Origin: an uncultured Chryseobacterium sp.
GTDB lineage: Bacteria; Bacteroidota; Bacteroidia; UBA10329
Length of the DNA: 64,000 nt
Assembly (NCBI GenBank): GCA_964500205.1
Contig: CAZCNS010000004.1
Span: 98,260-162,259, forward strand
Direction: 5' to 3'
The position numbers and the translations under genes are program-made. The notes under the pieces were generated by a model that saw nothing but the letters and a program-made list of their open reading frames with translations, was not told where the DNA came from and did not search any database. This document shows positions 13,967-51,605 of this stretch, one piece after another (within the stretch, counting starts at the first letter, position 1; every line of letters starts with the position of its first letter).

Positions 13967-14182
13967 TCACTGCGAGCGCAGCGAAGCAGTCTCCCCGTTA
14001 CCCTCCTCCGCAACCATCACCCCCTCCGCGCAGTAGTCGCGCAGCACCTCGTTTAGCAGGTCAGCCGTAAGGTCAGTGCTGCCGGCCAGTATGGTGCGGA
14101 ACACCTCCAAGCGGTCATCCACGCTCAGGGTGTTCAGCCTTTCATCATCGCGGAAGAAGGACATGAAGTCGTCTCGGGTCAT
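13967..14182 (-). CDS. Hypothetical small protein (72 aa from ATG; the longer ORF would need a TTG start)
   Basis: GC-rich ORF abutting the low-GC HNH islet, with acidic composition. No recognisable family. Confidence 0.3.
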   Translation of the reverse strand: MTRDDFMSFFRDDERLNTLSVDDRLEVFRTILAGSTDLTADLLNEVLRDYCAEGVMVAEEGNGETASLRSQ

Positions 14183-14223
14183 GGGATAATGGGATGTCAG
14201 TGGAGAATAGCTAAGCCTATGGT

Positions 14224-14478
14224 TCAACTTGCAATTCCGTATGAACTCTTCGTGAAGTGTATCCCTTCAATTGCCACAACTGCTTCATAGCGTGAAAGGG
14301 TCTCTTCATCAGAGGCATACTCTTCTAACAAGGAATCACATATGTAGACCTGAATGGCCTCCAAGGACGTCCTTCCTCTACTGTTGCCAATATGTCTTCC
14401 GTACTTGAAGATCGCGAACAGCGTGAAGCATTCGAGAGTTTTATGGGATGGACGAATGAATCGAGATTTGTTCGTCAT
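14224..14478 (-). CDS. Hypothetical small protein, 4-bp ATGA overlap with upstream HNH gene
   Basis: 84 aa ORF in a low-GC segment. Its start overlaps the HNH stop, which suggests translational coupling. Could equally be a gene remnant. Confidence 0.3.
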   Translation of the reverse strand: MTNKSRFIRPSHKTLECFTLFAIFKYGRHIGNSRGRTSLEAIQVYICDSLLEEYASDEETLSRYEAVVAIEGIHFTKSSYGIAS

Positions 14479-15257
14479 TGTTGAAATCGGTTATCGTAAT
14501 GCTCCTTCAGAAACTCTTTATCAGGCCAAAACTTCTTCGGCTCCTGAATACGCTTTCCTTCATACTGAAAGAATAATTCCTCCAGTTTACTTGGCTCACC
14601 ATAGCCTTTCAACTTGGGTGAGACCTTAATGATGTAGTCAGGCGTGATAGAGATCAGCCCTTGCTCATAGGCTTTGTCATGCAGGGCGTTGATCGCAATG
14701 CCGTTGTGTGGGTTCATCCTGTTCTTCTCATCATCTGCCCAACGCTTGATGTGACCCGCAACCAAGAGTTCAGGTTTGCTGATACCCGTGATGCAGCACG
14801 TGCCATCATAGGCTGAGAGCACCATTTTCCGGAAGAATGACTGATTCACCCGCATCTTCACCACCCTTTCACGCTCCTCTCCTCCTTTACTGAGGATAGC
14901 ATCGAGGTCAGGCTCATCTGCAAGCACATCTTCAATGTTGCGAAGCTCTTTTTGGGCCCGCAGCAGTTCACTCTCAAAGGCTACGCTCTCAATATTACCA
15001 TAGAACTCATCCCATATCTCCCTGTCCAACTTGCTTGCGTTCGTAGCACCTTTTACGCCCCGTGCTTGAAGCATGGGGTCGAAGCTTGCAAGATTCCCCA
15101 GTTTCAACCCAACGGACGAAGGCGTCCTGCCGATCAGGTTGGCAAGTGCGATCACTTCAGAGTTGTTCTTATGAAACTTGCCAAACGGCAGCTTAGAATA
15201 CAGGTTGATTGCCAGTATTAACTCCTCTCTTGTCCAAAGTTTCTGTCCTGCTTTCAT
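14475..15257 (-). CDS. HNH endonuclease (HNH_2 / putative restriction-endonuclease-like family), solitary
   Basis: 260 aa. C-terminal HNH core ...YDGTCCITGISKPELLVAGHIKRW...NPHNGIAINALHDKAYEQGLI. Local GC is roughly 44% versus ~60% for the flanks. Confidence 0.75.
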   Translation of the reverse strand: MKAGQKLWTREELILAINLYSKLPFGKFHKNNSEVIALANLIGRTPSSVGLKLGNLASFDPMLQARGVKGATNASKLDREIWDEFYGNIESVAFESELLRAQKELRNIEDVLADEPDLDAILSKGGEERERVVKMRVNQSFFRKMVLSAYDGTCCITGISKPELLVAGHIKRWADDEKNRMNPHNGIAINALHDKAYEQGLISITPDYIIKVSPKLKGYGEPSKLEELFFQYEGKRIQEPKKFWPDKEFLKEHYDNRFQQ

Positions 15258-15290
15258 TGCTCTTAGCTTGAGGGTGCAATCTACTACTGC

Positions 15291-15626
15291 TCACACTTTC
15301 CCCAACTCCTCAATCAACTCTCTCACCTTGCCCAACTCCTTCTCATACCACTCACGTACCCCGAACACCTCGGCCTTCACCACCTCGTCTCTTCCATTAT
15401 AAAAGGTCATGCCCATGATGGTGCGCACGCCCTCCTCCGAGAACTGCGTGGGGAACTTCGCCAACTGAGGCACTACCTCGTTGCGTTCGTTGGTGGTCAG
15501 TGTCATCGGCCCCACCTGCACGATCAGGTTGCACCGTTCCAGCATCCTGACGCTAAGTGTGCGTTCATAAGCCAATGCTCGCTCTTCAAGTTCTTGCAGG
15601 GTCTGTTCAAGTCTGTGTCTGTCCAT
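15291..15626 (-). CDS. Hypothetical protein
   Basis: About 111 aa from the internal ATG (MDRHRLEQTLQELEER...). Host-like GC. No family recognised. Confidence 0.4.
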   Translation of the reverse strand: MDRHRLEQTLQELEERALAYERTLSVRMLERCNLIVQVGPMTLTTNERNEVVPQLAKFPTQFSEEGVRTIMGMTFYNGRDEVVKAEVFGVREWYEKELGKVRELIEELGKV

Positions 15627-15718
15627 GATGCAAACCAACACCCCCACACCGTAACCTATTTACGGTCTGCGCTGTGGCTGGGTCTGTTGCATGGCCGGGT
15701 GTGGGCCGCTTGGTTCTG

Positions 15719-15955
15719 TCAGCGCGTGCGGATAGGCACGAAGCTTCTTCTTTTCTGCCATCTGCACGTGCAGAAGGGCACAAAGGGTTCCCTTTTATAC
15801 AATCTGCACGTGCGGAAGGGCACAAAGGGTTTCCTTTTATACAATCTGTACTTGCAGAAGGGCACAAAGGGTTTCCTTTTATACAATCTGCACGTGCGGA
15901 AGGACACAAAGGGTTTCCTTTTAAACAATCTGCACGTGCTGATAATCGGAAAGCT
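15719..15955. repeat. Tandem direct repeat array, ~42-bp unit x ~5 (tctgcacgtgcRgaagggcacaaagggtttccttttatacaa)
   Basis: Read directly from the sequence. Four near-identical contiguous copies (15767-15935) plus degenerate partial copies on each side. No spacers, so it is not CRISPR. Each unit contains the CACGTG palindrome. Confidence 0.9.
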
Positions 15956-16236: not shown

Positions 16237-16277
16237 CCAGAAATTTGCGACCATGTCTAACCTTAAAAACAAACAAA

Positions 16278-17249
16278 ATGAGCGACACATCCTGGCATTA
16301 CCTGAGCAACCAGTTTGAAACGGCCACGCGGGGCAGTTTCAAGCGGACCAACATCCTGAACAACGACCACCTGAGCAAGCTGAACAGCGAGGCGGCCGAC
16401 CCTGACATGGCGGCCCTGTCAGCCCGAACGGCCCCGCTGAGCGCGGCTTTCAGTGCGGCCTACAGCAACTACATCATGATAAACGGCACCTATAAGGGCC
16501 ACACCCAGCTGGTGGACAACCTGCTGCTTGAACTGAGCAGTCAGAAGATCAAGCAGTGGGACATTCAGGTACAGGTGCAGCATCTGGAGGGCACTCCTAC
16601 TTATATGATGATATTGCCCAACAGGCGCGGGCCTTTTCAGGAAGGCACGAAGGACGACCGTCTGAGTGCGGTGGAGGCTTTGGCCGAGGCACTGCTGGCC
16701 TATCCGGCCCTTGCGGCCACACAGGCTGATGTGGACAGCTTCGCCACGCAGCTTCGCACGGCCCGCGACAACCAGCAGCAGAAGGAGCAGCTCGCGGCCA
16801 TGGCGAGCGACCAGCTGGAAGTGGCACGCAAGGCACTCTGCACCATGATGTACGGCAACCTCGGGGTGCTGATGGACAAGTACCGAGACACGCCCGACAT
16901 GATCGAGAACTTCTGGCAGCTGGACCTGATAAGGCGGACGGGGCAGGGAAACGATGATGACGACCTGCCACAGAACGGCATCCGCATAGCAGGGACGGTG
17001 CGCTCGCAGAACGGCAACATGGGCATTCCCAACGCACTGGTGCGGGCCTACAACGCCATGCAGGGCCCAGGGGCAGGCACCATGGAGGTATTCTCCGGTG
17101 CGGACGGATCATACCTTCTTGCGGTGGATGACCTTCCGGAGGCCATCATGCTGGTGATCGAGGTATCGGCCGCGGGCTATCCGTCTCAGAGCAGGAACCT
17201 GAACGTATCGCCCGGTCAGACCTACGAGGGCGAGGATTTCTATCTCTGA
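16278..17249 (+). CDS. Hypothetical protein with C-terminal carboxypeptidase-regulatory-like beta-sandwich domain
   Basis: Start placed at MSDTSWHY downstream of the -7 motif. No signal peptide. C-terminal GIRIAGTVRSQNGN...GADGSYLL pattern. Confidence 0.5.
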   Translation: MSDTSWHYLSNQFETATRGSFKRTNILNNDHLSKLNSEAADPDMAALSARTAPLSAAFSAAYSNYIMINGTYKGHTQLVDNLLLELSSQKIKQWDIQVQVQHLEGTPTYMMILPNRRGPFQEGTKDDRLSAVEALAEALLAYPALAATQADVDSFATQLRTARDNQQQKEQLAAMASDQLEVARKALCTMMYGNLGVLMDKYRDTPDMIENFWQLDLIRRTGQGNDDDDLPQNGIRIAGTVRSQNGNMGIPNALVRAYNAMQGPGAGTMEVFSGADGSYLLAVDDLPEAIMLVIEVSAAGYPSQSRNLNVSPGQTYEGEDFYL

Positions 17250-17450: not shown

Positions 17451-18245
17451 TCAATCCAAAAACCCCCTCACCGCCCTCATAAAACCCTCCGCATCCTCTG
17501 CGTGCAGCCAGTGGCCCGCCTCCAAGGCGTGGAACTGTGCGTTGGGGAAAAGCTCCCGGATCCCCGCCTCGTCCTCCGGCAGGATGTACCGCGACCGCGT
17601 GCCACGGATGAAGAGGGCCGGCACCTCGCTGCCATGCGGCACCGGCAGACCCATCTCTCCGATGTCCATCGCCAGCACATCGAGGTTGAAACGCCACGCG
17701 TAGCAAGGCTCACCGTCCGCGTTCTTCCCCCGGTAGATGTTCTTGGTGAGGAACAGCACCACATCGCGCTCCTCTATGAACCGCGACAACTCCTCCTCGG
17801 CCTCACTGCGCGAGGCCACGTTCGGCAGGTCTATCGCCTGCATCGAGCGGATGATGAGGTCGTGGTGTATCGGATACGCCTTCACGCCCATGTCGGCCAC
17901 GATGAGCCGGCTCACCAGCTCGGGGTAAGCTGCCGCGAAGCGCATGGCCGTCTTGCCGCCCATGCTGTGGCCTATCACCACCGCGTCCGCGATGTCGTGG
18001 TCTGTGAAGAAGCGGTGCAGGTCCTCTACCATGCCCGCGTAGGTGTGCGTGTCCGTATGGGGCGAGTGCCCGTGGTTGCGCTGGTCCACGGCATAGACGT
18101 GGTAATGCTCGCCCAGCGTTCTGGCAATGCCCGCCCAGTTGTCCAACGACCCGAACAGCCCGTGCAGGATCACCAATGGCCTCCCCGAGCCGTATTCCTT
18201 ATAGTTCAGTGCTACAGTCTCCATGCCCGCAAAGGTCGTGAGCAT
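17451..18245 (-). CDS. Alpha/beta hydrolase (esterase YbfF-like)
   Basis: HGLFGS oxyanion region and GHSMGG nucleophile elbow. Its start overlaps the toxin stop, giving a TGATG coupling sequence. Confidence 0.8.
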   Translation of the reverse strand: MLTTFAGMETVALNYKEYGSGRPLVILHGLFGSLDNWAGIARTLGEHYHVYAVDQRNHGHSPHTDTHTYAGMVEDLHRFFTDHDIADAVVIGHSMGGKTAMRFAAAYPELVSRLIVADMGVKAYPIHHDLIIRSMQAIDLPNVASRSEAEEELSRFIEERDVVLFLTKNIYRGKNADGEPCYAWRFNLDVLAMDIGEMGLPVPHGSEVPALFIRGTRSRYILPEDEAGIRELFPNAQFHALEAGHWLHAEDAEGFMRAVRGFLD

Positions 18246-18598
18246 CAGTCTTCTTCCCGGAAGTACATCGAATCGGGACGCATTCTCGTGGGAAAGAAAT
18301 CAGTCACCTGAACGGTCATGAGTCTGTCATCGGAGAAGTACAAGATTTTCACCTCGAAATGACGAGTCTCTCTATGCAGTATGTATCTGGGTTCAAGTTC
18401 ATCATGCTCAAGGAATGATTCTTTTGCACCCCTATTGGGCATGATGGCAAGAGAGTCCACGTTGTTCAAAATGGACCCGAGTATCTCGACCGCCCGATTC
18501 TCTGAGAAATTCTTTAGCAGATATGGAATGATAGTGTCTCGGAGCCTTGTTCTCGCAGTCTCCGATATCAAGACGCGGTACCTGTCTTGCGTATCCAT
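18245..18598 (-). CDS. Type II toxin, RelE/ParE superfamily (ParE-like)
   Basis: 117 aa, overlapping the upstream small antitoxin gene by about 30 bp. Shows the ParE-like pattern ...AxxDLxxIxxYL ... MPNRGAKE ... RYILHRETRHFEVKILYF. Confidence 0.6.
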   Translation of the reverse strand: MDTQDRYRVLISETARTRLRDTIIPYLLKNFSENRAVEILGSILNNVDSLAIMPNRGAKESFLEHDELEPRYILHRETRHFEVKILYFSDDRLMTVQVTDFFPTRMRPDSMYFREED

Positions 18599-18789
18599 CG
18601 GTCACAGTCTTTTCGCAACTCGTCTAACGTTACAGTTCTACCGTTCGCAATGTCATCGAGTGATTCCTCAAAACGGGCCTGCATCTCAGCCTTCATAAGC
18701 ATCTCATCTATCTGGTCGAGAAGACGTTCGCTTTTCACCGCAAGGACTCGCTGAGAAAGTTCCAGCTGTCGGTTGTTTGTTGCATTCAT
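18568..18789 (-). CDS. Antitoxin, putative addiction-module component (TIGR02574-like)
   Basis: 73 aa from the internal ATG (MNATNNRQLELSQRVLAVKSERLLDQIDEMLMKAEMQARFEESLDD...). Helical, overlaps the toxin gene, and lies in a low-GC segment. Confidence 0.55.
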   Translation of the reverse strand: MNATNNRQLELSQRVLAVKSERLLDQIDEMLMKAEMQARFEESLDDIANGRTVTLDELRKDCDRWIRKTGTAS

Positions 18790-18967
18790 TTGAATCGGAT
18801 AAGCAATACAAAAATACAAAGCCATACTGTGCGCGGTCAGGGTGGAACATGTCACTGCTCAATACCGGTCTCTGTCCTCCGTCCGTTGAACGCAGTGAAA
18901 TCCCGCGTCTGCGGGATCCCTCGTCCCCCGTCCCCCGTCCCTCGTCCCCATCAACAATCAACAATCA

Positions 18968-35108: not shown

Positions 35109-37517
35109 ATGGAAATCAACTACATAGGTGAACAACTGATGCCCGGCAAGCTCGGGCATTTCTTTATCGTGCTGGGCTTCGTGTCGGCACTGGTGGCGGC
35201 CATCGCTTACTATTTCGGGGCGAAGGATGATGCCGAGTCGAATGGCTGGCGCAAGATGGGCCGTGTGGCGTTCGGCATCCATTCGTTCTCTGTGCTCAGT
35301 GTGGTAGGCATATTGCTCGGACTATTGGCCAACCATCGCTTCGAATACCATTACATCTGGCAGCACTCGAATACCGAGATGCCCATGGAATATATTCTTT
35401 CCAGCTTCTGGGAAGGGCAGGAGGGCAGTTTCTTGCTGTGGTTGTTCTGGCATGTGGTGCTGGGTCTCATCCTGATGTTCTCGGCCAAGAAATGGGAATC
35501 GCCCGTGATGGCGGTGTTCGCGCTGGTGCAGGCATTCCTCGTGTCGATGCTGCTGGGCACGCAGCTCGGTGATTTCCGTCTCGGCAGCAACCCGTTCGTG
35601 CTGCTGCGAGACCATCCCGATTTTATGAATCTGCCTTTCCTTCAGAACGCGAGCTACCTCACCAATCTGGACGGTCGCGGCCTCAACCCGCTGCTCCAGA
35701 ACTACTGGATGACTATCCACCCACCCACGCTGTTCTTAGGTTTTGCCAGTACGCTCGTGCCGTTTGCCTTCGCGATAGCGGGCCTTTGGAAAAAGCAGTA
35801 CACCGAATGGCTGAAGCCCGCCCTGCCTTGGACGTTCTTCGGTATCATGATTCTCGGCACGGGCATCCTTATGGGAGGTGCATGGGCCTACGAGGCATTG
35901 AGTTTCGGAGGATTCTGGGCTTGGGACCCCGTGGAGAATGCCAGCCTTGTACCGTGGATCACACTCGTTGGCGCGGCCCACGTCATGGTGATTCAGAAGA
36001 ACAAGGGGCAGTCGCTTATCATCACGTTCGTGCTCACGCTCATCACGTTCATCCTCATCCTTTACTCCACCTTCCTTACGCGGAGCGGGGTGCTCGGTGA
36101 GACAAGCGTGCACGCCTTCACCGACCTCGGCATGTCGGGCCAGCTGTTGGTCTATCTGCTATCTTTCCTGTTTCTGGCGATGCTGCTGCTGGCCGTGCGT
36201 TGGAAGGAACTGCCCAAGGCTGCTGAGGAGGAGAGTCTATACAGCCGCGAGTTCTGGATGTTCGTGGGTGCGATGGTGCTCAGCATTTCAGCCTTCCAGA
36301 TCAGTTTCAGCACCAGCATACCGGTCATCAACAAGGTGCTGGGCACGAACATCGCCCCACCCCTCGACCCCATTTCGCACTACAACAGTTGGCAGCTGCC
36401 GCTGGCGATCATCGTGGCGCTGCTCATTGCGGTGACTCAGTACCTCAAGTATCGCAAGACCGAGCCGAGGAAGTTCTACTCCGCGCTGGCGATTCCGTTC
36501 GGAGTTGCGCTGGTGCTGACCGTAGCGATTGCGGTGGCGATGAAATACACCCATTTCATGTATCTGCTGATGCTGTTCGCCACGCTCTTCACAGTGACAG
36601 CCAATCTCGGCTACTGGATTCAGATTCTGAAAGGGAAAATGGCTGTGGCGGGCGCATCGGTGGCGCACGTAGGATTCGGACTCATACTGCTGGGCGCATT
36701 CCTCAGTACCTCCAAGACTCAGACCATCAGCATGAACACAAGCGGTCTGGACGTCTCCAGCCTCGGGACCGACTACTCCAACCGCGAGAACATCCTGCTG
36801 ATGAAGGGCGACACGCTGCGGATGGCTGAGTATTTCGTCACCTACAAGGGGCGCAACAAGGAGGGAGTGAATATCTTCTACGAGGTGGAATACATGACGC
36901 AGCCCGCCCCTGGGCAGTACGAGACGGCCTTCACGCTCTACCCACGCGTGCAGACCAACCCGCGCATGGGCAACGTGGCCGAGCCTGACACGCGCCATTT
37001 CCTACACAAGGACATCTACACCTTCGTGACCTACGCGGAGATTGAGAAGCCCGATGTGAAGCCCGAGGACTTCAAGAACACCACCACCAAGGCACTGGCC
37101 GTGGGCGACACGCTCTTTGCGGGCAATGCCATCATCACCTTCGATGGTTTCGACCGCAATGTGGACAAGGCAGAACTCGGTCTGAAGGATGCGGATATTG
37201 CAGTGGGCGCCAAATTCACAGCGGTTGACATCAACAGCACGCGACATACGGCCATGCCCGTCTATGCGCTGCGCGATGCCTACGCCATCCCCGTGGAGGC
37301 GGAGATCGAACAGCTTGGCCTGAAATTCCGCATCAAGCGGCTCATACCTGAAGAGGGAAAAGTGGAGGTGGAACTCTACGAACGGGCCGACAACTACCGC
37401 GAGTTCATCGTGCTGAAAGCCCTTGTCTTCCCATGGATCAACATCCTGTGGGCGGGCTGCGTCATCATGGTCATCGGGACGGTGATGGCGATAAGGAGGA
37501 GGGTGAGGTTGGGGTAA
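35109..37517 (+). CDS. ccmF: Cytochrome c-type biogenesis protein CcmF (heme lyase component)
   Basis: 802 aa polytopic protein with the WWD motif WAYEALSFGGFWAWDPVENASLVPW. Confidence 0.9.
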   Translation: MEINYIGEQLMPGKLGHFFIVLGFVSALVAAIAYYFGAKDDAESNGWRKMGRVAFGIHSFSVLSVVGILLGLLANHRFEYHYIWQHSNTEMPMEYILSSFWEGQEGSFLLWLFWHVVLGLILMFSAKKWESPVMAVFALVQAFLVSMLLGTQLGDFRLGSNPFVLLRDHPDFMNLPFLQNASYLTNLDGRGLNPLLQNYWMTIHPPTLFLGFASTLVPFAFAIAGLWKKQYTEWLKPALPWTFFGIMILGTGILMGGAWAYEALSFGGFWAWDPVENASLVPWITLVGAAHVMVIQKNKGQSLIITFVLTLITFILILYSTFLTRSGVLGETSVHAFTDLGMSGQLLVYLLSFLFLAMLLLAVRWKELPKAAEEESLYSREFWMFVGAMVLSISAFQISFSTSIPVINKVLGTNIAPPLDPISHYNSWQLPLAIIVALLIAVTQYLKYRKTEPRKFYSALAIPFGVALVLTVAIAVAMKYTHFMYLLMLFATLFTVTANLGYWIQILKGKMAVAGASVAHVGFGLILLGAFLSTSKTQTISMNTSGLDVSSLGTDYSNRENILLMKGDTLRMAEYFVTYKGRNKEGVNIFYEVEYMTQPAPGQYETAFTLYPRVQTNPRMGNVAEPDTRHFLHKDIYTFVTYAEIEKPDVKPEDFKNTTTKALAVGDTLFAGNAIITFDGFDRNVDKAELGLKDADIAVGAKFTAVDINSTRHTAMPVYALRDAYAIPVEAEIEQLGLKFRIKRLIPEEGKVEVELYERADNYREFIVLKALVFPWINILWAGCVIMVIGTVMAIRRRVRLG

Positions 37518-37866
37518 GTCGGGCTGATTGCCCCTCGTTTTATTGGCGCAAAGTGCCCGTTTCAATGCTGTTTTGGGATTCCCTCATATTTCTTGGTGAC
37601 TCGGATGCCATGCGTTCAGATAAGAATATTCCTGCGGGCTGGAATTTATTAAGTACATGAAAAATTCTATTGTTTCTTTTCTGGCAATCGTACTCGGGAA
37701 CATTTTGTGTGCTAAATACTATCACACTCAAAGCGGTTTTAGATTTTTATCATTGCTAGGGCTTTTTATGGTTTTGGCATCAATTTTTTCCTTCTGAGCA
37801 AATTTTTCGAGGCTTTTTCGCAGCAGTAATGAACAACGTATTTCTGAAGAGAAATCTGTAACTATT

Positions 37867-38175
37867 ATGGCGATTGTTTTGGTGGTGTTAATTGTGCTAC
37901 AGGTGTTTGGGATGGTATTTTTTGATGATCATCAGAACAGATTACTTGAAGAACATGGACAATTTACAGAAACCATAGTTGTGAATAAAACGCGGGAAAG
38001 GCGCGGAAGAGGTGCCGCAGGCTACTACATACATTATATTTTCACTTACAATGGAAAGGAGTATAAACACGATGCAGAAATTGACTCTGTCGAAATTGGT
38101 GATACGATAGAAATTAAGTTTTATCCTGAGAACCCTGAAAACCACCGAGTCTTAACGAAAGGCTCGAATCGTTAA
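37867..38175 (+). CDS. DUF3592-like small membrane-anchored protein
   Basis: 102 aa with an N-terminal TM helix, then a beta-rich region with the IEIKFYPENPENHRVL pattern. Lies in an AT-rich segment. Confidence 0.5.
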   Translation: MAIVLVVLIVLQVFGMVFFDDHQNRLLEEHGQFTETIVVNKTRERRGRGAAGYYIHYIFTYNGKEYKHDAEIDSVEIGDTIEIKFYPENPENHRVLTKGSNR

Positions 38176-38344
38176 TAATTCAGTCTTAATCGTATGGCTG
38201 CTGCTTTTGTTTTGATTCGCTGTTAGTTCTCAGGAGGGGGTGTTATTGTGGTCTCTTTGCGATTTCATTAGCGTAGTAATTGTGATAGTTTGAAGTTGTC
38301 GTGAGCCGATTAGCAGGGTTATTCGGCTCACGATTCGGTCATTT

Positions 38345-38470
38345 ATGAGCCGATTGCAGCGTAGTGCATCCAAGGCCACCGCCACCCGCGACCTGCAAGA
38401 CCTTTCGGAAAAAGGGATTCTTACCGTGTCGGGCGGAGGAAGAAGCACGGGGTATCAGGTGAATCTCTGA
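38345..38470 (+). pseudogene. Remnant of the C-terminal winged-helix domain of a Fic/DOC-family protein
   Basis: The 41-codon ORF MSRLQRSASKATATRDLQDLSEKGILTVSGGGRSTGYQVNL matches the conserved C-terminal wHTH tail of Fic proteins. No Fic core lies upstream. Confidence 0.45.
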
Positions 38471-38550
38471 ATGTTCGGAGGGGATGCGTCATCGTGGTCA
38501 TCGGTACGGTGATGGCGATACGAAGGAGGGTGAGGTCGGGTTGACCTAAC

Positions 38551-40032
38551 TTGCGGCCTGAGATGGCTGCTTTCCTGAAAATGCGGGTGATACTGTCCTT
38601 GTCGACCATCGCTGTGTTGTTGGTCTTCTCCTTTTTCCGATTCTCTGCCTATCATTATCCCTTTCTTGATTCTGACATGGCCATCCATGTGCTCATGGCG
38701 CGTGGGTTCGAGTTTTACCATAATCTCTACTACTGGGGACAGACCCGCTTGGGCAGTCTTCTGCCGCTGGTGGCATTCTTTCCCTGGAAAGTCGGGCTGA
38801 ACCCGCTGAAGGCAGTTTCGCTGGCGCAGTGCGGCATGGTCGTGGTCACACTGGGCGGTTTTTTTCTTTTGGAAAGAAAGTGGTTGGGGTCGGTCGTGCT
38901 GGCCGCACTGTTCCTGCTTCCCCCACCGGCATTGGTGTACACGCTGATGCCCGGTCATCCTGCGTTGCCGCACATCATGCTCACGGTGCTCGGTGCGTAT
39001 GCCGTGATGAGGGTAGGTGCAGGCGATGCCCGTGCAGACAGTTTTTGGTTCTTGACCGGTTGGCTTTGCGCACTGATGGCGGTCTGGGTGTCCGATCTTG
39101 CCATGGTCACCGCACCTGCGCTGTGGGTCTGGATGGTGGTTCGGGTCAGGATTCGGTCGGGAGCTGACACATCGGTCCGGATATCGGTGGCTGTCGTCCT
39201 TGCCACTCTTTCACTTCCGTTGTGGGTGGCATGGCTCAAGAGCGGAAGGGTCGATTATTCGGGTTATGATGAGCAATCTGTTGCAGGGCTAATGATGGCT
39301 GGGAAGGGGCTGACAGCCCACCTTTATTCTCTTCTTGAGACGCTTATGATGAAGGATGGTTTCAGGTGGTCGGGGCTGTGGGCGGGTTTCATGGCACTGG
39401 CAACGGGTCTTGGTGTGCATGTACTGGTCGGTGATGCAAGGAGACGAGGCATGGCCGATACCCTGACGCATCCCTCGTTGCTGTTTTTGCTGCTTGCTGC
39501 GTTGACGTATGCCGCTACTATGATGAGCGGATGGGCCGCACTCAATGGCTACGATTCGCGTTACCTGGCAGTGCCGGTCGTGTTTCTCATGATGTCGCTC
39601 TGCATGATGTTAACGAACGAACGGCCACGGATGCCACTCGTCTTGACGCTGGTCATCGCTGCCATCGCCTCTGGATTGTCTTTCGGGGAGCAGGTGCCGC
39701 ACCCTGATAGGTTTCAAGTGAACGATGACGCTCGTGACCGCTTGCGTGCCATGCGGTCGGCCACCATTTTGGGCGACTACTGGTTCTGTTATGCCATGGC
39801 CTCGTACAATGCGGATGAGATTATTCCGATGCCGTTCGGGGAGGATTTTTACCGTAACGGACATCAGATAGAGGCAGCTTTTCTCAGCGATTCCATTTTC
39901 GTTTGCACTTCGACCAAGTATCCTCAGCTAAGTGACACATTGCATCAGCATGGTCGGATGCTACTGAAGACCGGTGAACCGCATTTCCAAGTCGGGAATG
40001 CTGTTTTGGCCAGGTATACCGTCCAACTCTAA
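38551..40032 (+). CDS. Polytopic integral membrane protein (GT-C/ArnT-like fold suspected), hypothetical
   Basis: 493 aa (start ambiguous, 38551-38581) with more than 10 predicted TM helices. Function unknown. Confidence 0.5.
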   Translation: MRPEMAAFLKMRVILSLSTIAVLLVFSFFRFSAYHYPFLDSDMAIHVLMARGFEFYHNLYYWGQTRLGSLLPLVAFFPWKVGLNPLKAVSLAQCGMVVVTLGGFFLLERKWLGSVVLAALFLLPPPALVYTLMPGHPALPHIMLTVLGAYAVMRVGAGDARADSFWFLTGWLCALMAVWVSDLAMVTAPALWVWMVVRVRIRSGADTSVRISVAVVLATLSLPLWVAWLKSGRVDYSGYDEQSVAGLMMAGKGLTAHLYSLLETLMMKDGFRWSGLWAGFMALATGLGVHVLVGDARRRGMADTLTHPSLLFLLLAALTYAATMMSGWAALNGYDSRYLAVPVVFLMMSLCMMLTNERPRMPLVLTLVIAAIASGLSFGEQVPHPDRFQVNDDARDRLRAMRSATILGDYWFCYAMASYNADEIIPMPFGEDFYRNGHQIEAAFLSDSIFVCTSTKYPQLSDTLHQHGRMLLKTGEPHFQVGNAVLARYTVQL

Positions 40033-48805: not shown

Positions 48806-50467
48806 TCAAAAACTGAAGTGAAGCCCCGCAATGAAACTGAACCGCTGTGACGGATACCTGTCCCAAAGCTCATAGCGCATCGCACCGATGTTGCGGAAGT
48901 CCACGAACGCGCCCAGCCATTTCTTGTAGCGGTATTCCACCCCGAGGTTCGCATCCACGAAGGCATCCAGCCCGATCTTGGTATAGCGTTCCCCGAACGG
49001 GGTGACCTCATAACCCCGCGCCACCCGCTGACTCTGCGCCACGATACCCGCCTTGAAGATGAACTTGTCATTCAGGTTGTAATTGGCCCCGAACTGGAAC
49101 CTGAACGGTGCCTCGTGCCACGGGGCGATGCTGTCGCTCGGCATGGTGAAGAAGCGGTAGTCCGCCTGCGCCACCAGTTGCAGCTTCTCTTTCAGGTGGT
49201 AGCTCAGCTCACCGCTGATGCTCGTCACCATCACATCGTGATACTCTGGCGTGAAGCGGTTGCCCACCCCGTCACTCCAGTCGTTGACCCAGAACAGCTG
49301 CTGGCCCGTGATTACCTGCGCCACGCTGATGTCGTAGGCCAGCCCTCGGAAGATGATACCCTTGAAACCGCCCCACACGTTCAGTCGCTCCCAACTGTTG
49401 CTCAGCGTCAGGTCGGTGAGGGCGAAGGGGTTCACCTGCGAGATGGTGCGCAGGCCGTTGCGCTGCACCCCGCCCTTGGCCCCCGCATAGAAGCGGAAGA
49501 TGTCCTGCACCAGGAAATAGTGGAAGTCCAGCACGGGGAACACCATCACCTGGGTCGTGGTGTCGTTGATGTCGAGCGAGAGGTTGGCGCCCACCGCAAT
49601 GCCCCACCGCTTGCGCACCGCACGGAACTCAGGCTCGAAGCCGATGACCCCGTTGTTCAGCGACTGCGTGGGCATGTCGTTGCGCCAGTAGTCGCCCGTG
49701 ATGCGGCCGTAGAGCTTCTCCTTCTTGATGTTGAACACCAGTTCCACATCGGCCTTGGCGTGATGCTCGCGGCTGGCGAAGCGGTCGGTGGTGAAACCGT
49801 AGCCGATGCCCGCGCGGTTCAGGTGGCGCAGCTTCTTGCCGTCCTGCATGGCCGCGAGGTCCATGCTCACACCGATGTGGTGGAACGACTGGCGGATGTC
49901 ATTGTCGGCAAAGGCCGTGTCCTCTGGGTTGTAGCCGTAGAAGAAATTGCCATCATGGTCGTAGGTGATGCGCTCGGTGAGGGTGTGGCCCTTGAAGAAC
50001 TTCTTGCCGAAGAGGTCAACGCCCGCATCGGTGAAGCCGAACGGACGGCCGTCAAGCTCTGCGAACGAGGCGTGGTAGCGCGCAAACCCGCCCGCTTGGA
50101 ACGACTTGCTGCGCAGGCTGCCGAAGCTCGCCTCGAAGAACGGCATGGTGTAGTTGCCGAAGCCCACCTTGAGGTGGCCGCTGCGCAGCTTGGTCAGCGG
50201 CTCGTTGGCCAGCTGGGCCGCGTTCAGGGGCTGGGTCTCGTACTTCAGCTCCTGCCGCACGGGCAGCACCGAGTACTCCATCTCGGGCAGGGCGGCCGTG
50301 TCCGTAGGCACTTCGGGTGCGGGGATGATGCGCTGTGCATCCCGCGCCACGGGGCGGTACTCCTTCCTGATGGTGAACCGCAGACTGTCGGGCAGGGTCT
50401 GCTGGGCCACCACGGGCAGCGTGAGCAGCATCGCTCCGAGGGTCAGTATGCGGGGTAGTTGCTTCAT
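48806..50467 (-). CDS. Outer-membrane beta-barrel protein (putative porin), hypothetical
   Basis: Signal peptide MKQLPRILTLGAMLLTLPVVAQ. 553 aa with amphipathic beta-strands and a C-terminal ...GLHFSF. Confidence 0.55.
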   Translation of the reverse strand: MKQLPRILTLGAMLLTLPVVAQQTLPDSLRFTIRKEYRPVARDAQRIIPAPEVPTDTAALPEMEYSVLPVRQELKYETQPLNAAQLANEPLTKLRSGHLKVGFGNYTMPFFEASFGSLRSKSFQAGGFARYHASFAELDGRPFGFTDAGVDLFGKKFFKGHTLTERITYDHDGNFFYGYNPEDTAFADNDIRQSFHHIGVSMDLAAMQDGKKLRHLNRAGIGYGFTTDRFASREHHAKADVELVFNIKKEKLYGRITGDYWRNDMPTQSLNNGVIGFEPEFRAVRKRWGIAVGANLSLDINDTTTQVMVFPVLDFHYFLVQDIFRFYAGAKGGVQRNGLRTISQVNPFALTDLTLSNSWERLNVWGGFKGIIFRGLAYDISVAQVITGQQLFWVNDWSDGVGNRFTPEYHDVMVTSISGELSYHLKEKLQLVAQADYRFFTMPSDSIAPWHEAPFRFQFGANYNLNDKFIFKAGIVAQSQRVARGYEVTPFGERYTKIGLDAFVDANLGVEYRYKKWLGAFVDFRNIGAMRYELWDRYPSQRFSFIAGLHFSF

Positions 50468-50497
50468 TAAATTAAATCACATTCTTGCCTTGTTGAA

Positions 50498-51592
50498 CTA
50501 TAGTCTTATTTCTGATGACACATCCTCTAGGAGTTGTATGAAATCTCTTAACATAGATGTATTCAGTTTTTTCGGATTATGCACCAAATCGTTTCTAAAT
50601 CTTCGTAAACTATCGAGTTTGGCTGCCATCCCTGAATCAATCTTTTCCGCACGACTAACAGTTCGAATTGCTTCGAGCATCGTGGGGTTGCGACTGGTAG
50701 AATCTCCCACATGACTTATGAGCTTCTCTTCCAACTCAGCCCACTTCTGCAAAAACTCACCAACATCACCCGTCTGGAGTCCCTTATCCGCGAGGTCTTT
50801 TATTTCCTTACATAAATGAAAAATTGGGTCGTTGTCAGGATACAAGGACAATTTTGGGATTGGGTCAAAGCCATCACCCCAAAACGACTTATTAGTTGGA
50901 ATCTGGAACTTCGCCACTAGTCTTCGGTTAAAGTCCAATTCTGTTTTGTGCTCGTAATTGTAAGTGATTTCATCAGTTCCTGCCAAGTAACCTTCTTGAA
51001 AGTACGGTCTTAACGCAGTTGGGGGGCAAATGGACAGCAGTCTTATGTTGACCAAATCATGTTCAGAATTTATCGTTATTCTATTTGTTAGATAAGGTAG
51101 CCCAAATACAAATATGTATGCACTATCACCTTCATTTCCCATTGTAGCAAATGAGCATGCTACTCTCAGCGAATGGGTGAAATCGAGATATGGTGTATCA
51201 CAAACCTCATAGTGCTGAAGAACACTCCATTGCACCGCTTTTCTTCTCTTCAACTCCTTGAAGCCTTCAATTTCTTTCTGTTCAAACAGCTCAACAAGTG
51301 CTCTACTTGCACCCTCCAAAACATCGAATTTTCTTCGCATGTCTCGATGAAGGACGTATTCACCACGGTAGATGCTTGGATAAAAAGTAGAACTACCTGC
51401 CTTATTTCTATAGTCCTTGGATTGTCCCCTGTAGAAAAGCAGATGGTCTTTATTCTTAAAAGAAAGCTTCGCAGTTTGTTCCACCAGTTCACGGAAGGTC
51501 TTCACCTGATACGCATCAGACGAACCAACCTTGGTGTTTTCACCAAAGTGACTCAGTAACTCCTCCGTAAGTGTTGGCTGAATGTCTCGCAT
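50498..51592 (-). CDS. FRG-domain protein with C-terminal HEPN-like (Rx4H) domain; candidate defence/abortive-infection effector
   Basis: The FRG signature LLFYRGQSKDY...FYPSIYRG ... LQHYEVCDTPYLDFTHSLRVACSFA is read directly. The C-terminal helical region carries LRRFRNDLVHN, matching the HEPN R-x4-H motif. The gene is about 40% GC, 14 bp downstream of the TPR gene stop, with an internal ATG (MRDIQPTL) preferred as start. Confidence 0.6.
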   Translation of the reverse strand: MRDIQPTLTEELLSHFGENTKVGSSDAYQVKTFRELVEQTAKLSFKNKDHLLFYRGQSKDYRNKAGSSTFYPSIYRGEYVLHRDMRRKFDVLEGASRALVELFEQKEIEGFKELKRRKAVQWSVLQHYEVCDTPYLDFTHSLRVACSFATMGNEGDSAYIFVFGLPYLTNRITINSEHDLVNIRLLSICPPTALRPYFQEGYLAGTDEITYNYEHKTELDFNRRLVAKFQIPTNKSFWGDGFDPIPKLSLYPDNDPIFHLCKEIKDLADKGLQTGDVGEFLQKWAELEEKLISHVGDSTSRNPTMLEAIRTVSRAEKIDSGMAAKLDSLRRFRNDLVHNPKKLNTSMLRDFIQLLEDVSSEIRL

Positions 51593-51605
51593 TACTTCAC
51601 ATACA

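What the first reader, a model, noticed from the sequence alone, without database searches (positions are those of the whole stretch)
13967..15650. Low-GC islet with a solitary HNH_2 restriction-like endonuclease and tightly coupled small ORFs
Roughly 14230-15290 drops to about 44% GC. It encodes a 260-aa HNH endonuclease of the restriction-endonuclease-like subtype, with an N-terminal ~100-aa domain of unknown function. No methyltransferase partner is visible. An 84-aa ORF overlaps its stop by ATGA. Small host-GC ORFs flank the islet on each side: a 72-aa ORF at 13967-14182 and a 111-aa ORF at 15291-15626. Solitary HNH_2 proteins are candidates for type IV (modification-dependent) restriction or for effector modules of unknown systems. 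The small coupled ORFs could be partner or immunity components.
Basis: partly seen in the sequence, partly recalled or inferred. Interest (0 to 1): 0.55.

Follow-up and report, generated by a model that had tools for sequence, protein, structure and literature searches.

The report
Stand-alone HNH nuclease in defence slot
The low-GC islet is a swappable cargo (an intact HNH restriction-type nuclease plus one orphan small gene) in a small defence hot spot; the two flanking small genes bracket the slot in close relatives and are not HNH partners, so this is a fairly ordinary defence-island gene from a large, untested family.

Summary
Four co-oriented minus-strand ORFs sit at the stated coordinates, HNH and the 84-aa ORF overlap by ATGA, and GC dips, though to 47%, not 44%.

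The HNH protein has an intact active site and is under strong purifying selection (dN/dS 0.02). It belongs to a very large family of 256-260 aa proteins, mainly in Bacteroidota. Its catalytic half resembles the type IV enzymes VcaM4I, TagI and the phosphorothioate-dependent SBD-HNH enzymes. Its N-terminal 105 residues form an all-helical, homeodomain-like domain with no solved or curated relative.

The main new result concerns the flanks. The 111-aa and 72-aa ORFs bracket a variable slot. In syntenic relatives, homology breaks exactly at the 111-aa stop codon and the 72-aa start codon. The same slot there holds a McrBC-like pair. Downstream of 111-aa homologs elsewhere lie MTase plus paraMORC-like modules, DUF6998 or a Schlafen-like helicase.

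So these two ORFs are not HNH partners. The 84-aa ORF is a lineage-restricted orphan that travels with HNH.

The most likely function is an MTase-independent, probably modification-dependent, restriction nuclease. The target is unknown and 5mC is unlikely. Interest is moderate to low.

The parts
15291..15626 (-). orf111: a conserved small gene directly upstream of the variable slot (left anchor or leader gene); not part of the swapped cargo
   Evidence: The family has 14 protein clusters at 61-100% identity plus distant relatives at 37-42%. dN/dS is 0.17 against L084. Homologs always sit directly upstream of, and co-oriented with, unrelated cargos: HNH, McrBC-like, C5 MTase + HEF_HK + Response_reg_2, DUF6998 and a Schlafen-like helicase. 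Homology between HNH-bearing and McrBC-bearing relatives ends at its stop codon. It has no Pfam, NCBIfam, PADLOC, PHROG or PDB match.
14183..15290 (-). Swapped cargo of the slot, i.e. the low-GC islet: HNH gene, 84-aa ORF and short spacers
   Evidence: L085 and L088 are collinear at 92.5% up to the orf111 stop and at 97.5% from the orf72 ATG. Between these points L085 has HNH + orf83 (1,108 bp) and L088 has a 4,090-bp McrBC-like pair. Cargo GC is 47.3% against 57.1% for the rest of the window.
14475..15257 (-). 260-aa stand-alone HNH_2 nuclease
   Evidence: Matches: Pfam HNH_2 8.6e-9; PADLOC model PDLC04132 'HNH' 1.4e-89 over residues 4-259; 4,454 homologs. H169, N182, N185, N190, H193 and D194 are invariant in 25 homologs. 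dN/dS is 0.02. The AF2 model has pLDDT 80, and its best PDB matches are VcaM4I and TagI.
14943..15257 (-). N-terminal domain (residues 1-105): an all-helical, homeodomain/Myb-like helix-turn-helix; presumed DNA-binding or reader module
   Evidence: The AF2 model of the domain alone has pLDDT 92.4 and six helices. Foldseek finds no significant match in PDB or BFVD; the best are homeodomains at TM 0.7 over ~59 residues. An hmmsearch of PDB finds nothing significant. The domain has 1,785 relatives among 1.84 billion representatives; nine of the ten atypical or longer ones scanned with Pfam carry HNH_2 or break off inside its motif. W8, Y20, R44 and N55 are invariant across 54 diverse members.
14475..14882 (-). 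C-terminal catalytic region (residues 126-260): helix plus beta-beta-alpha-metal HNH core and C-terminal extension
   Evidence: phmmer to VcaM4I 6yex gives 1.8e-8 for residues 126-216. NCBIfam PT-DNA_restrict aligns residues 110-258 to model positions 144-283 of 284.
14224..14478 (-). orf84: an orphan small ORF translationally coupled to HNH (ATGA overlap); part of the cargo
   Evidence: Only two protein clusters exist in the 5.8-billion database (itself, and a 90%-identical 83-aa protein). It keeps the same position in syntenic relatives L084-L086. dN/dS is 0.27 with low dS. No family hit. It is unrelated to the 105-aa family coupled to HNH elsewhere (hhalign probability 0.1).
13967..14182 (-). 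orf72: a conserved small gene at the right edge of the slot (right anchor); not part of the swapped cargo
   Evidence: Homology between the HNH-bearing L085 and the McrBC-bearing L088 resumes exactly at its ATG. It matches phrog_10158 at 3.2e-21. Homologs lie downstream of an HNH cassette in Lacibacter L070 and directly upstream of orf111 in L096. GC is host-like at 60.6%.

Best explanation
**Shown.** The low-GC islet (window 14183-15290) is the exchangeable cargo of a small defence hot spot in a Flavobacteriales-type genome. The slot lies between two small conserved genes, orf111 and orf72. In sister genomes the same slot, with breakpoints at the orf111 stop codon and the orf72 start codon, carries a McrBC-like pair. 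Directly downstream of orf111 homologs in other relatives lie C5- or N6/N4-MTase plus paraMORC-like/HEF_HK plus Response_reg_2 modules, a DUF6998 protein, or a Schlafen-group-3 helicase-like protein. Here the cargo is a 260-aa HNH_2 nuclease plus a translationally coupled 84-aa orphan ORF. The nuclease has an intact H-N-H site, is under strong purifying selection, and belongs to a family of thousands.

**Inferred.** The protein works as a single-chain, methyltransferase-independent restriction nuclease of type IV architecture. The N-terminal helical HTH domain, which occupies the position held by EVE, SRA or SBD readers in VcaM4I, TagI and SBD-HNH enzymes, would bind foreign DNA through a mark or a short sequence. 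The HNH domain, probably as a dimer and with a divalent metal, would then nick or cut nearby.

The mark is unknown. Plain 5-methylcytosine is unlikely, because homologs coexist with, and in one case are fused to, C5 methyltransferases. A homolog with an intact reading frame and catalytic motifs also sits in heavily 5mC-methylated Neisseria gonorrhoeae.

orf111 and orf72 are slot flanks, or possibly a cargo-independent leader gene; they are not HNH-specific partners. The role of orf84 is open.
For: **Hot spot.**
- L088 and L085 are collinear at 92.5% and 97.5% on the two sides, and their cargos are swapped exactly between the orf111 stop and the orf72 ATG.
- Further cargos lie behind orf111 homologs.
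- Every cargo has lower GC than its flanks.
- orf111 similarity follows host lineage, not cargo type.

**Nuclease.**
- HNH_2 is matched above threshold, and the PADLOC HNH model matches at 1.4e-89 over the full length.
- The catalytic residues are invariant.
- dN/dS is 0.02 against a syntenic relative that is ~80% identical in DNA.

**Type IV likeness.**
- The closest solved relatives are VcaM4I (sequence 1.8e-8; Foldseek 1.7e-4) and TagI.
- The C-terminal half aligns to NCBIfam PT-DNA_restrict.
- The N-terminal domain is a separate, confidently folded module (pLDDT 92).
- That domain is duplicated in P0121 and preceded by a weak Mrr_N-like match (E 0.002, below Pfam's cutoff) in P0163.
- Only 12 of 146 large neighbours within 1 kb, across 76 loci, are MTases, and several of those are truncated.
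- Family members sit next to bona fide type IV enzymes: SBD-HNH at 326 bits in L027 and SRA-HNH in L070.
- No MTase was found in the window.

**Tolerance of 5mC.**
- P0248 is a full-length C5 MTase-HNH fusion.
- The gonococcal homolog has an intact reading frame and catalytic motifs, between pheS and pheT. Gonococci carry many active 5mC MTases (PMC6789123).
Against: - No member of this exact family has been tested, as far as the held literature shows.
- The N-terminal domain matches no known modification reader (SRA, EVE, SBD, NEco, winged helix), so modification dependence rests on architecture and context only.
- About 16% of loci do have an adjacent MTase, and one fusion protein exists. 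In L002/L003 the same orf111-HNH unit is followed by an N6/N4 MTase plus an HK-like protein and a 603-aa ORF with no Pfam hit. This resembles the published association of HNH_2 with RR-like/HK-like R-M neighbourhoods (PMC8011034). In some lineages HNH may therefore act as the nuclease of an R-M-like system.
- An unlinked protecting MTase elsewhere in this genome cannot be excluded from a 64-kb window.
- An empty slot was not found.
- In L096 orf72 lies upstream of orf111, and in L098 orf111 is tightly coupled between a C5 MTase and HNH. So orf111 may be more than a passive flank.
Confidence: 0.55

Rival explanations
1. HNH is an orphaned or split type II restriction endonuclease. It would be the R gene of an R-M (or MTase + HK-like + RR-like) system whose methyltransferase has been lost here or lies elsewhere in the genome.
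For: - P0248 is an HTH_3-C5 MTase-Ndom-HNH fusion.
- C5 MTases lie directly upstream in 6 or more loci, and in L098 as a tight M-orf111-HNH operon.
- L002/L003 carry the same orf111-HNH unit followed by an N6/N4 MTase, a paraMORC-like HK and a 603-aa ORF with no Pfam hit.
- HNH_2 is the nuclease domain most often found next to such modules (PMC8011034).
- Some HNH_2 proteins are type II enzymes, e.g. AlwI and HphI (PMC5714182).
Against: - About 84% of 76 loci have no MTase within 1 kb.
- Where a C5 MTase is adjacent it is often truncated at varying points, while HNH stays intact. The same holds in N. gonorrhoeae, where the MTase is reported inactive.
- HNH here is under strong purifying selection without any MTase in 64 kb. 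A classical R gene does not survive loss of its M gene.
Confidence: 0.13
2. HNH and orf84 form a toxin-immunity or abortive-infection pair. HNH would be a non-specific DNase held in check by the small, translationally coupled protein.
For: - The two genes overlap by ATGA, and orf84 travels with HNH as part of the cargo.
- In 13 or more of 80 family loci a different ~105-aa ORF overlaps the 3' end of HNH by 20-23 nt, and other small ORF families occupy the same position.
- TA modules abound around the slot in relatives.
Against: - 45 of 81 family loci scanned have no close downstream co-oriented ORF, and many of the 36 ORFs that were found are ordinary larger genes.
- The downstream small ORFs are unrelated to one another.
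- orf84 has only two clusters in 5.8 billion proteins.
- There are no secretion or toxin-delivery domains.
- L002/L003 keep HNH at 85% identity without orf84.
Confidence: 0.1
3. HNH is a selfish, free-standing homing-type endonuclease that inserts itself near or into R-M genes.
For: - It is an HNH nuclease in a compositionally foreign islet.
- Homologs abut truncated C5 MTase and MvaI/BcnI-type genes in distant phyla.
Against: - Only one full-length hit in 50,697 phage records.
- No intron or intein context, and a single copy in the window.
- It is inherited in synteny with dN/dS 0.02.
- Exchange occurs at the same breakpoints as for unrelated cargos, which fits recombination in the flanks.
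Confidence: 0.05
4. HNH has a housekeeping or repair role, for example a Vsr-like nicking enzyme linked to cytosine methylation, or it is a DNA-binding regulator with a vestigial nuclease.
For: Vsr genes and C5 MTases recur next to family members (8 and 13 of 80 loci), including the Neisseria NgoAXIII remnant.
Against: - It occurs patchily, on islands and on a plasmid.
- It occupies a slot otherwise used by McrBC-like and R-M-like systems.
- The catalytic residues are strictly conserved.
- There is no MTase or Vsr in this window.
Confidence: 0.05

Closest known systems
VcaM4I (EVE-HNH) and TagI (SRA-HNH) modification-dependent restriction endonucleases (PDB 6yex, 6ghs)
   Same: Single-chain, two-domain layout with a C-terminal HNH_2-type beta-beta-alpha-metal domain. 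They are the best sequence and fold matches among solved structures. Like them, this gene is solitary, with no cognate MTase nearby.
   Different: The N-terminal EVE or SRA base-flipping reader is replaced by an all-helical, homeodomain-like domain with no detectable relation to either. Modification dependence is untested.
Phosphorothioate-dependent SBD-HNH enzymes (ScoMcrA/SprMcrA type; NCBIfam NF045808 PT-DNA_restrict)
   Same: The C-terminal 150 residues align to the model's C-terminal half. A true family member lies directly downstream of an HNH homolog in Pontibacter (L027).
   Different: The score is 54.9 bits against a cutoff of 180, and the sulfur-binding N-terminal half is absent.
[quoted passage not shown]
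   Same: Similar size (224-283 aa) and logic: a small DNA-binding domain plus HNH. HhiV4I's virus gives a weak tblastn hit to the HNH half. MTase neighbours are rare.
   Different: The predicted N-terminal domain has no beta wing and gives no winged-helix or DpnI-type match. The taxa also differ: haloarchaea against Bacteroidota.
Chromosomal defence hot spots with conserved boundary genes (for example P. aeruginosa core defence hot spots, PMC10250203; the pheT-bounded island holding MADS, bioRxiv 10.1101/2023.03.30.534895)
   Same: Fixed flanking genes, alternative defence cargos in the same place, and low-GC cargo.
   Different: The slot is very small, holding a single system of 1-6.6 kb. It is bounded by two tiny genes of unknown function, one of which (orf111) always leads the cargo and also occurs in non-syntenic contexts.
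NgoAXIII remnant locus of Neisseria gonorrhoeae (Vsr + truncated C5 MTase between pheS and pheT; PMC6789123)
   Same: It holds a 249-aa full-length homolog (42.6% identity) with an intact H-N-H motif, directly after the truncated MTase.
   Different: Different phylum, and no orf111, orf84 or orf72. The cited passages of the paper describe only the VSR gene and the MTase remnant and do not mention the HNH gene.

Membership tests
Pfam HNH_2 (PF13391) / His-Me finger nucleases | Profile match above the gathering score | tested here: met
   35.6 bits against a cutoff of 21, residues 154-204
Pfam HNH_2 (PF13391) / His-Me finger nucleases | Catalytic His, metal-binding Asn and His conserved, within a beta-beta-alpha fold | tested here: met
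   H169, N182, N185, N190, H193 and D194 are invariant in 25 homologs. The AF2 model places strands 164-167 and 187-190 followed by helix 191-198. It superposes on VcaM4I and TagI.
Type IV (modification-dependent) reader-HNH restriction endonucleases | Catalytic domain homologous to characterised members | tested here: met
   6yex at 1.8e-8; Foldseek 1.7e-4; partial PT-DNA_restrict match
Type IV (modification-dependent) reader-HNH restriction endonucleases | A recognised modified-base reader domain (SRA, EVE/PUA, SBD, NEco, winged helix) | tested here: not met
   The N-terminal domain has no Pfam, NCBIfam or PDB sequence match. Foldseek gives only insignificant homeodomain-like hits.
Type IV (modification-dependent) reader-HNH restriction endonucleases | No cognate methyltransferase | tested here: met
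   None in the 64-kb window. Only 12 MTase hits among 146 neighbours of 76 loci. The rest of the genome was not seen.
Type IV (modification-dependent) reader-HNH restriction endonucleases | Cleavage requires modified DNA | not testable with these tools
   Needs enzyme assays or in vivo restriction tests
NCBIfam NF045808 phosphorothioated-DNA-binding restriction endonuclease | Full-length match above the curated cutoff, including the sulfur-binding N-terminal half | tested here: not met
   54.9 bits against 180; only model positions 144-283 are matched
Type II restriction-modification system | Adjacent cognate methyltransferase | tested here: not met
   No MTase in the window; the gene neighbours are orf111, orf84 and orf72
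Homing endonuclease (free-standing or intron/intein-borne) | Phage, intron or intein context, or multiple mobile copies | tested here: not met
   One full-length hit in 50,697 phage records; inherited in synteny in L084-L086
Toxin-immunity / effector-partner pair with the small ORFs | The partner gene co-occurs with the nuclease across the family | tested here: not met
   orf111 is in 0 of 80 representative loci, orf84 in 0 of 80 and orf72 in 1 of 80. orf84 is unrelated to the other coupled small ORFs.
Defence hot spot cargo | Conserved flanks with alternative cargos at identical breakpoints | tested here: met
   L085 against L088; further cargos behind orf111 homologs
Defence hot spot cargo | The alternative cargos are recognisable defence genes | tested here: met
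   AAA_5 / PDC-M26A plus DUF2357/PDDEXK_7 (McrBC-like); C5 and N6/N4 MTases with HATPase_c_3/HEF_HK/Response_reg_2; a Schlafen-group-3 helicase-like protein. DUF6998 and the 250- and 261-aa proteins remain unassigned.
MADS (methylation-associated defence system) | mad6-8 core genes present | not tested
   The only hint is a weak mad2 hit (E 0.005) for the MTase in relative L002. Nothing of the kind is in the window.

The most novel reading that the evidence does not exclude
There are two linked readings.

(1) The ~105-residue homeodomain-like N-terminal domain may be a new class of DNA-mark or DNA-sequence reader. It would define a very large, untested family of stand-alone restriction nucleases (more than 4,000 protein clusters across Bacteroidota, Chlorobi, Ignavibacteria and Neisseria). 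Its target would not be ordinary 5mC.

(2) orf111 may not be a passive flank. It could be a dedicated leader or regulator gene of a miniature 'plug-in' slot that accepts unrelated defence cargos, with orf72 as the other boundary. The permuted order orf72-orf111-cargo in L096 hints at a circular or cassette-like intermediate.
Probability: 0.25. Interest if true: 0.6.

Novelty: new member of a known kind. Interest (0 to 1): 0.35.

Why it matters
On its own this is one more solitary restriction-type nuclease on a small genomic islet. Its value is mainly as a pointer.

- The family is large, highly conserved (about 60% identity across phyla) and catalogued only as 'HNH endonuclease' or 'putative restriction endonuclease'. 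Its N-terminal domain has no solved or curated relative. Determining what that domain recognises could add a new reader module to the type IV toolbox, which has been useful for epigenome mapping.
- The orf111/orf72-bounded slot gives a compact natural experiment in defence-cargo swapping in Bacteroidota. Defence hot spots in that phylum are little described in the literature I could search.

Tried and rejected
- **orf84 and the ~105-aa 'YLYRDAGNYK' family.** Is orf84 a diverged member of the family coupled to HNH in other loci? hhalign gives probability 0.1, so this was rejected.
- **A structured RNA under the conserved stretch 14075-14410.** Rfam finds nothing at E up to 1 or at gathering thresholds. 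The cause of the conservation remains unexplained.
- **R.NmeDI as a characterised homolog via the Neisseria pheS-pheT locus.** Rejected. R.NmeDI is a different 351-aa protein; no HNH is mentioned and its reported BLAST relatives are putative type II REases.
- **MADS membership suggested by the PADLOC model numbering.** The MADS preprint passages I read (the term 'endonuclease' does not occur in its main text) name no HNH component. Only a weak mad2 hit exists, for a relative's MTase. Not pursued.
- **Sigma-70 promoter and terminator scan.** Counts were at shuffle level, and the scan is not suited to Bacteroidota promoters.
- **orf72 in phage genomes.** tblastn finds no match, despite the PHROG profile hit.
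- **orf111 elsewhere.** It has no match in viral contigs, plasmids or PDB.
- **An empty slot (orf111 directly followed by orf72).** None was found. Only alternative occupants and a permuted order were seen.
- **The 42-bp tandem repeat as part of the system.** It is not conserved in relatives, so it was set aside.
Full report
**1. The observation**

- orf111 at 15291-15626;
- the 260-aa HNH gene at 14475-15257;
- orf84 at 14224-14478, whose start overlaps the HNH stop as ATGA;
- orf72 at 13967-14182.

The GC dip is real but milder than stated. The stretch 14230-15290 is 47.4% GC against a window mean of 56.9 +/- 3.8% for 1.1-kb windows, and only 2.5% of such windows are as low. HNH (48%) and orf84 (44%) are the low-GC genes. 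orf111 (54.5%) and orf72 (60.6%) look like the host. No methyltransferase was detectable in the 64-kb window with four MTase seeds and motif scans.

**2. The nuclease**

Family matches:
- The protein matches Pfam HNH_2 above threshold.
- A PADLOC model simply called 'HNH' matches over the full length at 1.4e-89.
- The C-terminal half of NCBIfam's phosphorothioate-dependent restriction endonuclease model matches well below cutoff (54.9 against 180 bits).
- The only solved relative by sequence is the EVE-HNH type IV enzyme VcaM4I, through the HNH half.

Distribution and conservation:
- The family is very large. There are 4,454 clusters with E of 1e-3 or better. The best 120 are almost all 248-262 aa, and those at about 60% identity include Flavobacteriia, Cytophagia, Chlorobi and Ignavibacteria.
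- 344 confirmed loci were found among GTDB species representatives.
- There is a 42.6%-identical copy in Neisseria gonorrhoeae and a 51% copy on a Hymenobacter plasmid.
- H169, N182, N185, N190, H193 and D194 are invariant.
- Against a syntenic relative about 80% identical in DNA, dN/dS is 0.02.

**3. The N-terminal domain**

Residues 1-105 are the most conserved part of the family. Modelled alone, the domain gives pLDDT 92.4 as six helices.

It matches no known fold significantly. Foldseek against PDB and BFVD returns only insignificant homeodomain- or Myb-like matches, with TM about 0.7 over the first three helices. A profile search of PDB sequences finds nothing. It is therefore not an SRA, EVE, SBD, NEco or winged-helix reader.

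A search of 1.84 billion representative proteins with the domain alone found 1,785 relatives. Of ten atypical or longer ones scanned with Pfam, eight carry HNH_2, and a ninth (P0163) breaks off inside the HNH motif. Informative variants among them are:
- a tandem duplication of the domain (P0121);
- a weak Mrr_N-like domain in front of it (P0163, E 0.002, below Pfam's cutoff);
- one HTH_3-C5 methyltransferase-Ndom-HNH fusion (P0248).

**4. What the small ORFs are**

orf84 has only one other cluster in 5.8 billion proteins. That cluster led to three metagenomic contigs, L084-L086. They are syntenic with the window at 78-84% DNA identity and carry the same four genes.

orf111 has 14 clusters. 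Their contexts are decisive.
- L088/L089 share the left flank (92.5% identity, ending exactly at the orf111 stop) and the right flank (97.5%, starting exactly at the orf72 ATG) with HNH-bearing L085. Between these points they carry an AAA_5 protein (PADLOC PDC-M26A) and a DUF2357/PDDEXK_7 protein, i.e. a McrBC-like pair, instead of HNH + orf84.
- Other orf111 homologs are followed directly by one of these cargos:
  - HNH + N6/N4 MTase + HATPase_c_3/HEF_HK + a 603-aa protein (L002/L003);
  - C5 MTase + HATPase_c_3/HEF_HK + Response_reg_2 (L087);
  - a split PDC-M26A-like pair + DUF2357/PDDEXK_7 (L090);
  - DUF6998 (L094/95);
  - a Schlafen-group-3 helicase-like protein (L096, L097, L099).
- Every cargo has lower GC than its flanks.
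- orf111 sequences group by host lineage, not by cargo.
- An orf111 profile finds no copy in the 80 representative HNH loci.

The window's islet (14183-15290) is thus one allele of a small defence slot. orf111 and orf72 bound the slot and are not HNH partners.

Two observations keep open the idea that orf111 is more than a passive flank.
- In the distant contig L098 it sits in a tight C5 MTase-orf111-HNH operon with a 4-nt overlap.
- In L096 orf72 lies directly upstream of orf111.

**5. Family-wide context**

I clustered the neighbours in 80 loci and found no universal partner. The recurrent neighbours are:
- a ~68-aa zinc-ribbon ORF upstream (14 loci);
- a ~105-aa ORF overlapping the 3' end of HNH by 20-23 nt (13 or more loci);
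- C5 MTases (13 loci);
- MvaI/BcnI-type nucleases (9 loci);
- Vsr (8 loci);
- second HNH_2 proteins.

Of 146 proteins of at least 140 aa within 1 kb of HNH in 76 loci, 9 are C5 MTases and 3 are N6/N4 MTases. About 84% of loci therefore lack an adjacent MTase.

The C5 MTases directly upstream are truncated at different positions but always abut HNH. The same holds in N. gonorrhoeae. There the homolog lies between pheS and pheT, after Vsr and a 133-aa MTase stump. This is the NgoAXIII remnant, whose MTase is reported inactive (PMC6789123).

Some neighbours are true type IV enzymes: an SBD-HNH at 326 bits in Pontibacter and an SRA-HNH in Lacibacter.

**6. Mechanism**

Shown:
- an intact, selected HNH nuclease with a separate helical N-terminal domain;
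- its residence as cargo in a defence slot;
- independence from any adjacent MTase.

Inferred: a single-chain restriction nuclease of type IV architecture. The N-terminal domain would target the enzyme to foreign DNA, and the HNH domain would cut nearby.

Plain 5mC is an unlikely trigger, for three reasons. Homologs coexist with full-length C5 MTases (L059, L032, L055). One homolog is fused to a C5 MTase (P0248). A homolog with an intact reading frame and catalytic motifs sits in gonococci, which methylate many cytosine motifs.

The main rival is an orphaned type II or R-M-like nuclease. It draws on the MTase adjacency in about 16% of loci, the L002-type operon, and the published association of HNH_2 with RR-like/HK-like R-M neighbourhoods (PMC8011034). 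It is weakened by the persistence of HNH after MTase decay.

A toxin-immunity pair with orf84, a homing endonuclease and a repair role are less likely. Details are in the rival explanations.

**7. Unexplained**

The 3' two-thirds of orf84, the spacer and the 5' half of orf72 (14075-14410) are 88-97% identical in DNA to L084. HNH is only 75-83% identical. dS is 0.27 for orf84 against about 3 for HNH. A recent recombination tract across the right junction is the simplest idea. No RNA family matches.

The substitutions in the C-terminal 58 codons of orf84 are mostly synonymous. That fits a real protein-coding gene, but the numbers are small.

**8. Verdict**

- The islet is a new member of a known kind: a solitary restriction-type HNH nuclease carried as defence-island cargo.
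- Its N-terminal domain is uncharacterised, and it sits in a neat, previously undescribed mini hot spot.
- Interest is moderate to low (0.35). It would rise if the N-terminal domain proves to be a new reader, or if orf111 proves to be a generic leader of defence cassettes.

Noticed in passing
window 15760-15939: A 42-bp tandem repeat of 4.3 copies at 92% identity. Each unit contains the perfect palindrome TGCACGTGCA and an AAAGGGTTTCCTTT inverted motif. It lies in the ~600-bp non-coding gap between orf111 and the CarboxypepD_reg-domain gene (16275-17249). It is unique in the window, and relatives have unrelated 21-bp repeats at the same place.
   Followed up: partly
window 14075-14410: DNA identity to the syntenic relatives L084-L086 peaks here at 88-97%, across the orf84 3' part, the spacer and the orf72 5' part. 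The neighbouring HNH gene is only 75-83% identical. No Rfam match.
   Followed up: partly
window 18150-18900: A second low-GC patch (47-49%) with two small overlapping minus-strand ORFs, 18245-18598 (117 aa) and 18568-18855 (95 aa), laid out like a toxin-antitoxin pair. No Pfam hit.
   Followed up: partly
window 36944-38970 and 50104-52065: Two further low-GC stretches (down to 41% GC near 50454), possibly other islands. I only listed the ORFs of the first one.
   Followed up: no
L006, L015, L039, L044, L046, L062 (upstream of HNH); L092 4332-4733 (N. gonorrhoeae): C5 DNA methyltransferase genes directly upstream of HNH homologs are truncated at different points but always abut HNH. MvaI/BcnI-type nuclease and Vsr genes or fragments are often nearby. 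The same picture appears in the gonococcal NgoAXIII remnant between pheS and pheT. One metagenomic protein (P0248) is a full-length MTase-HNH fusion.
   Followed up: partly
L014, L021, L035-L037, L047, L050, L057, L062, L070, L079 (directly downstream of HNH): An unannotated ~105-aa protein family (motif NxxFxYLYRDxGNYK ... DHxWxEF) overlaps the 3' end of HNH homologs by 20-23 nt (4 nt in L070) in 13 or more of 80 loci. A ~68-aa CxxC...C zinc-ribbon ORF sits directly upstream in 14 loci. Neither has a significant Pfam, PADLOC or NCBIfam hit.
   Followed up: partly
L096 726-1324; L098 33-2054: In L096 the orf72 homolog lies directly upstream of the orf111 homolog, followed by a Schlafen-like helicase cargo. 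This is a circular permutation of the window's gene order. In L098 a distant orf111 homolog sits in a tight C5 MTase-orf111-HNH operon (2-nt gap, then a 4-nt overlap).
   Followed up: partly
L002 6874-12541; L087 5341-10339: MTase + HATPase_c_3/HEF_HK ('paraMORC'-like) + Response_reg_2-type modules, as described in PMC8011034, occupy the slot behind orf111 in relatives. In L002 the module follows HNH; in L087 there is no HNH.
   Followed up: partly
L084-L086, L088 flanks of the slot: The region around the slot in relatives is rich in toxin-antitoxin pairs (HepT/MNT, PIN, DUF3368/UPF0175, DUF433/DUF5615) that differ between otherwise collinear contigs. The whole neighbourhood therefore appears to be variable.
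   Followed up: no
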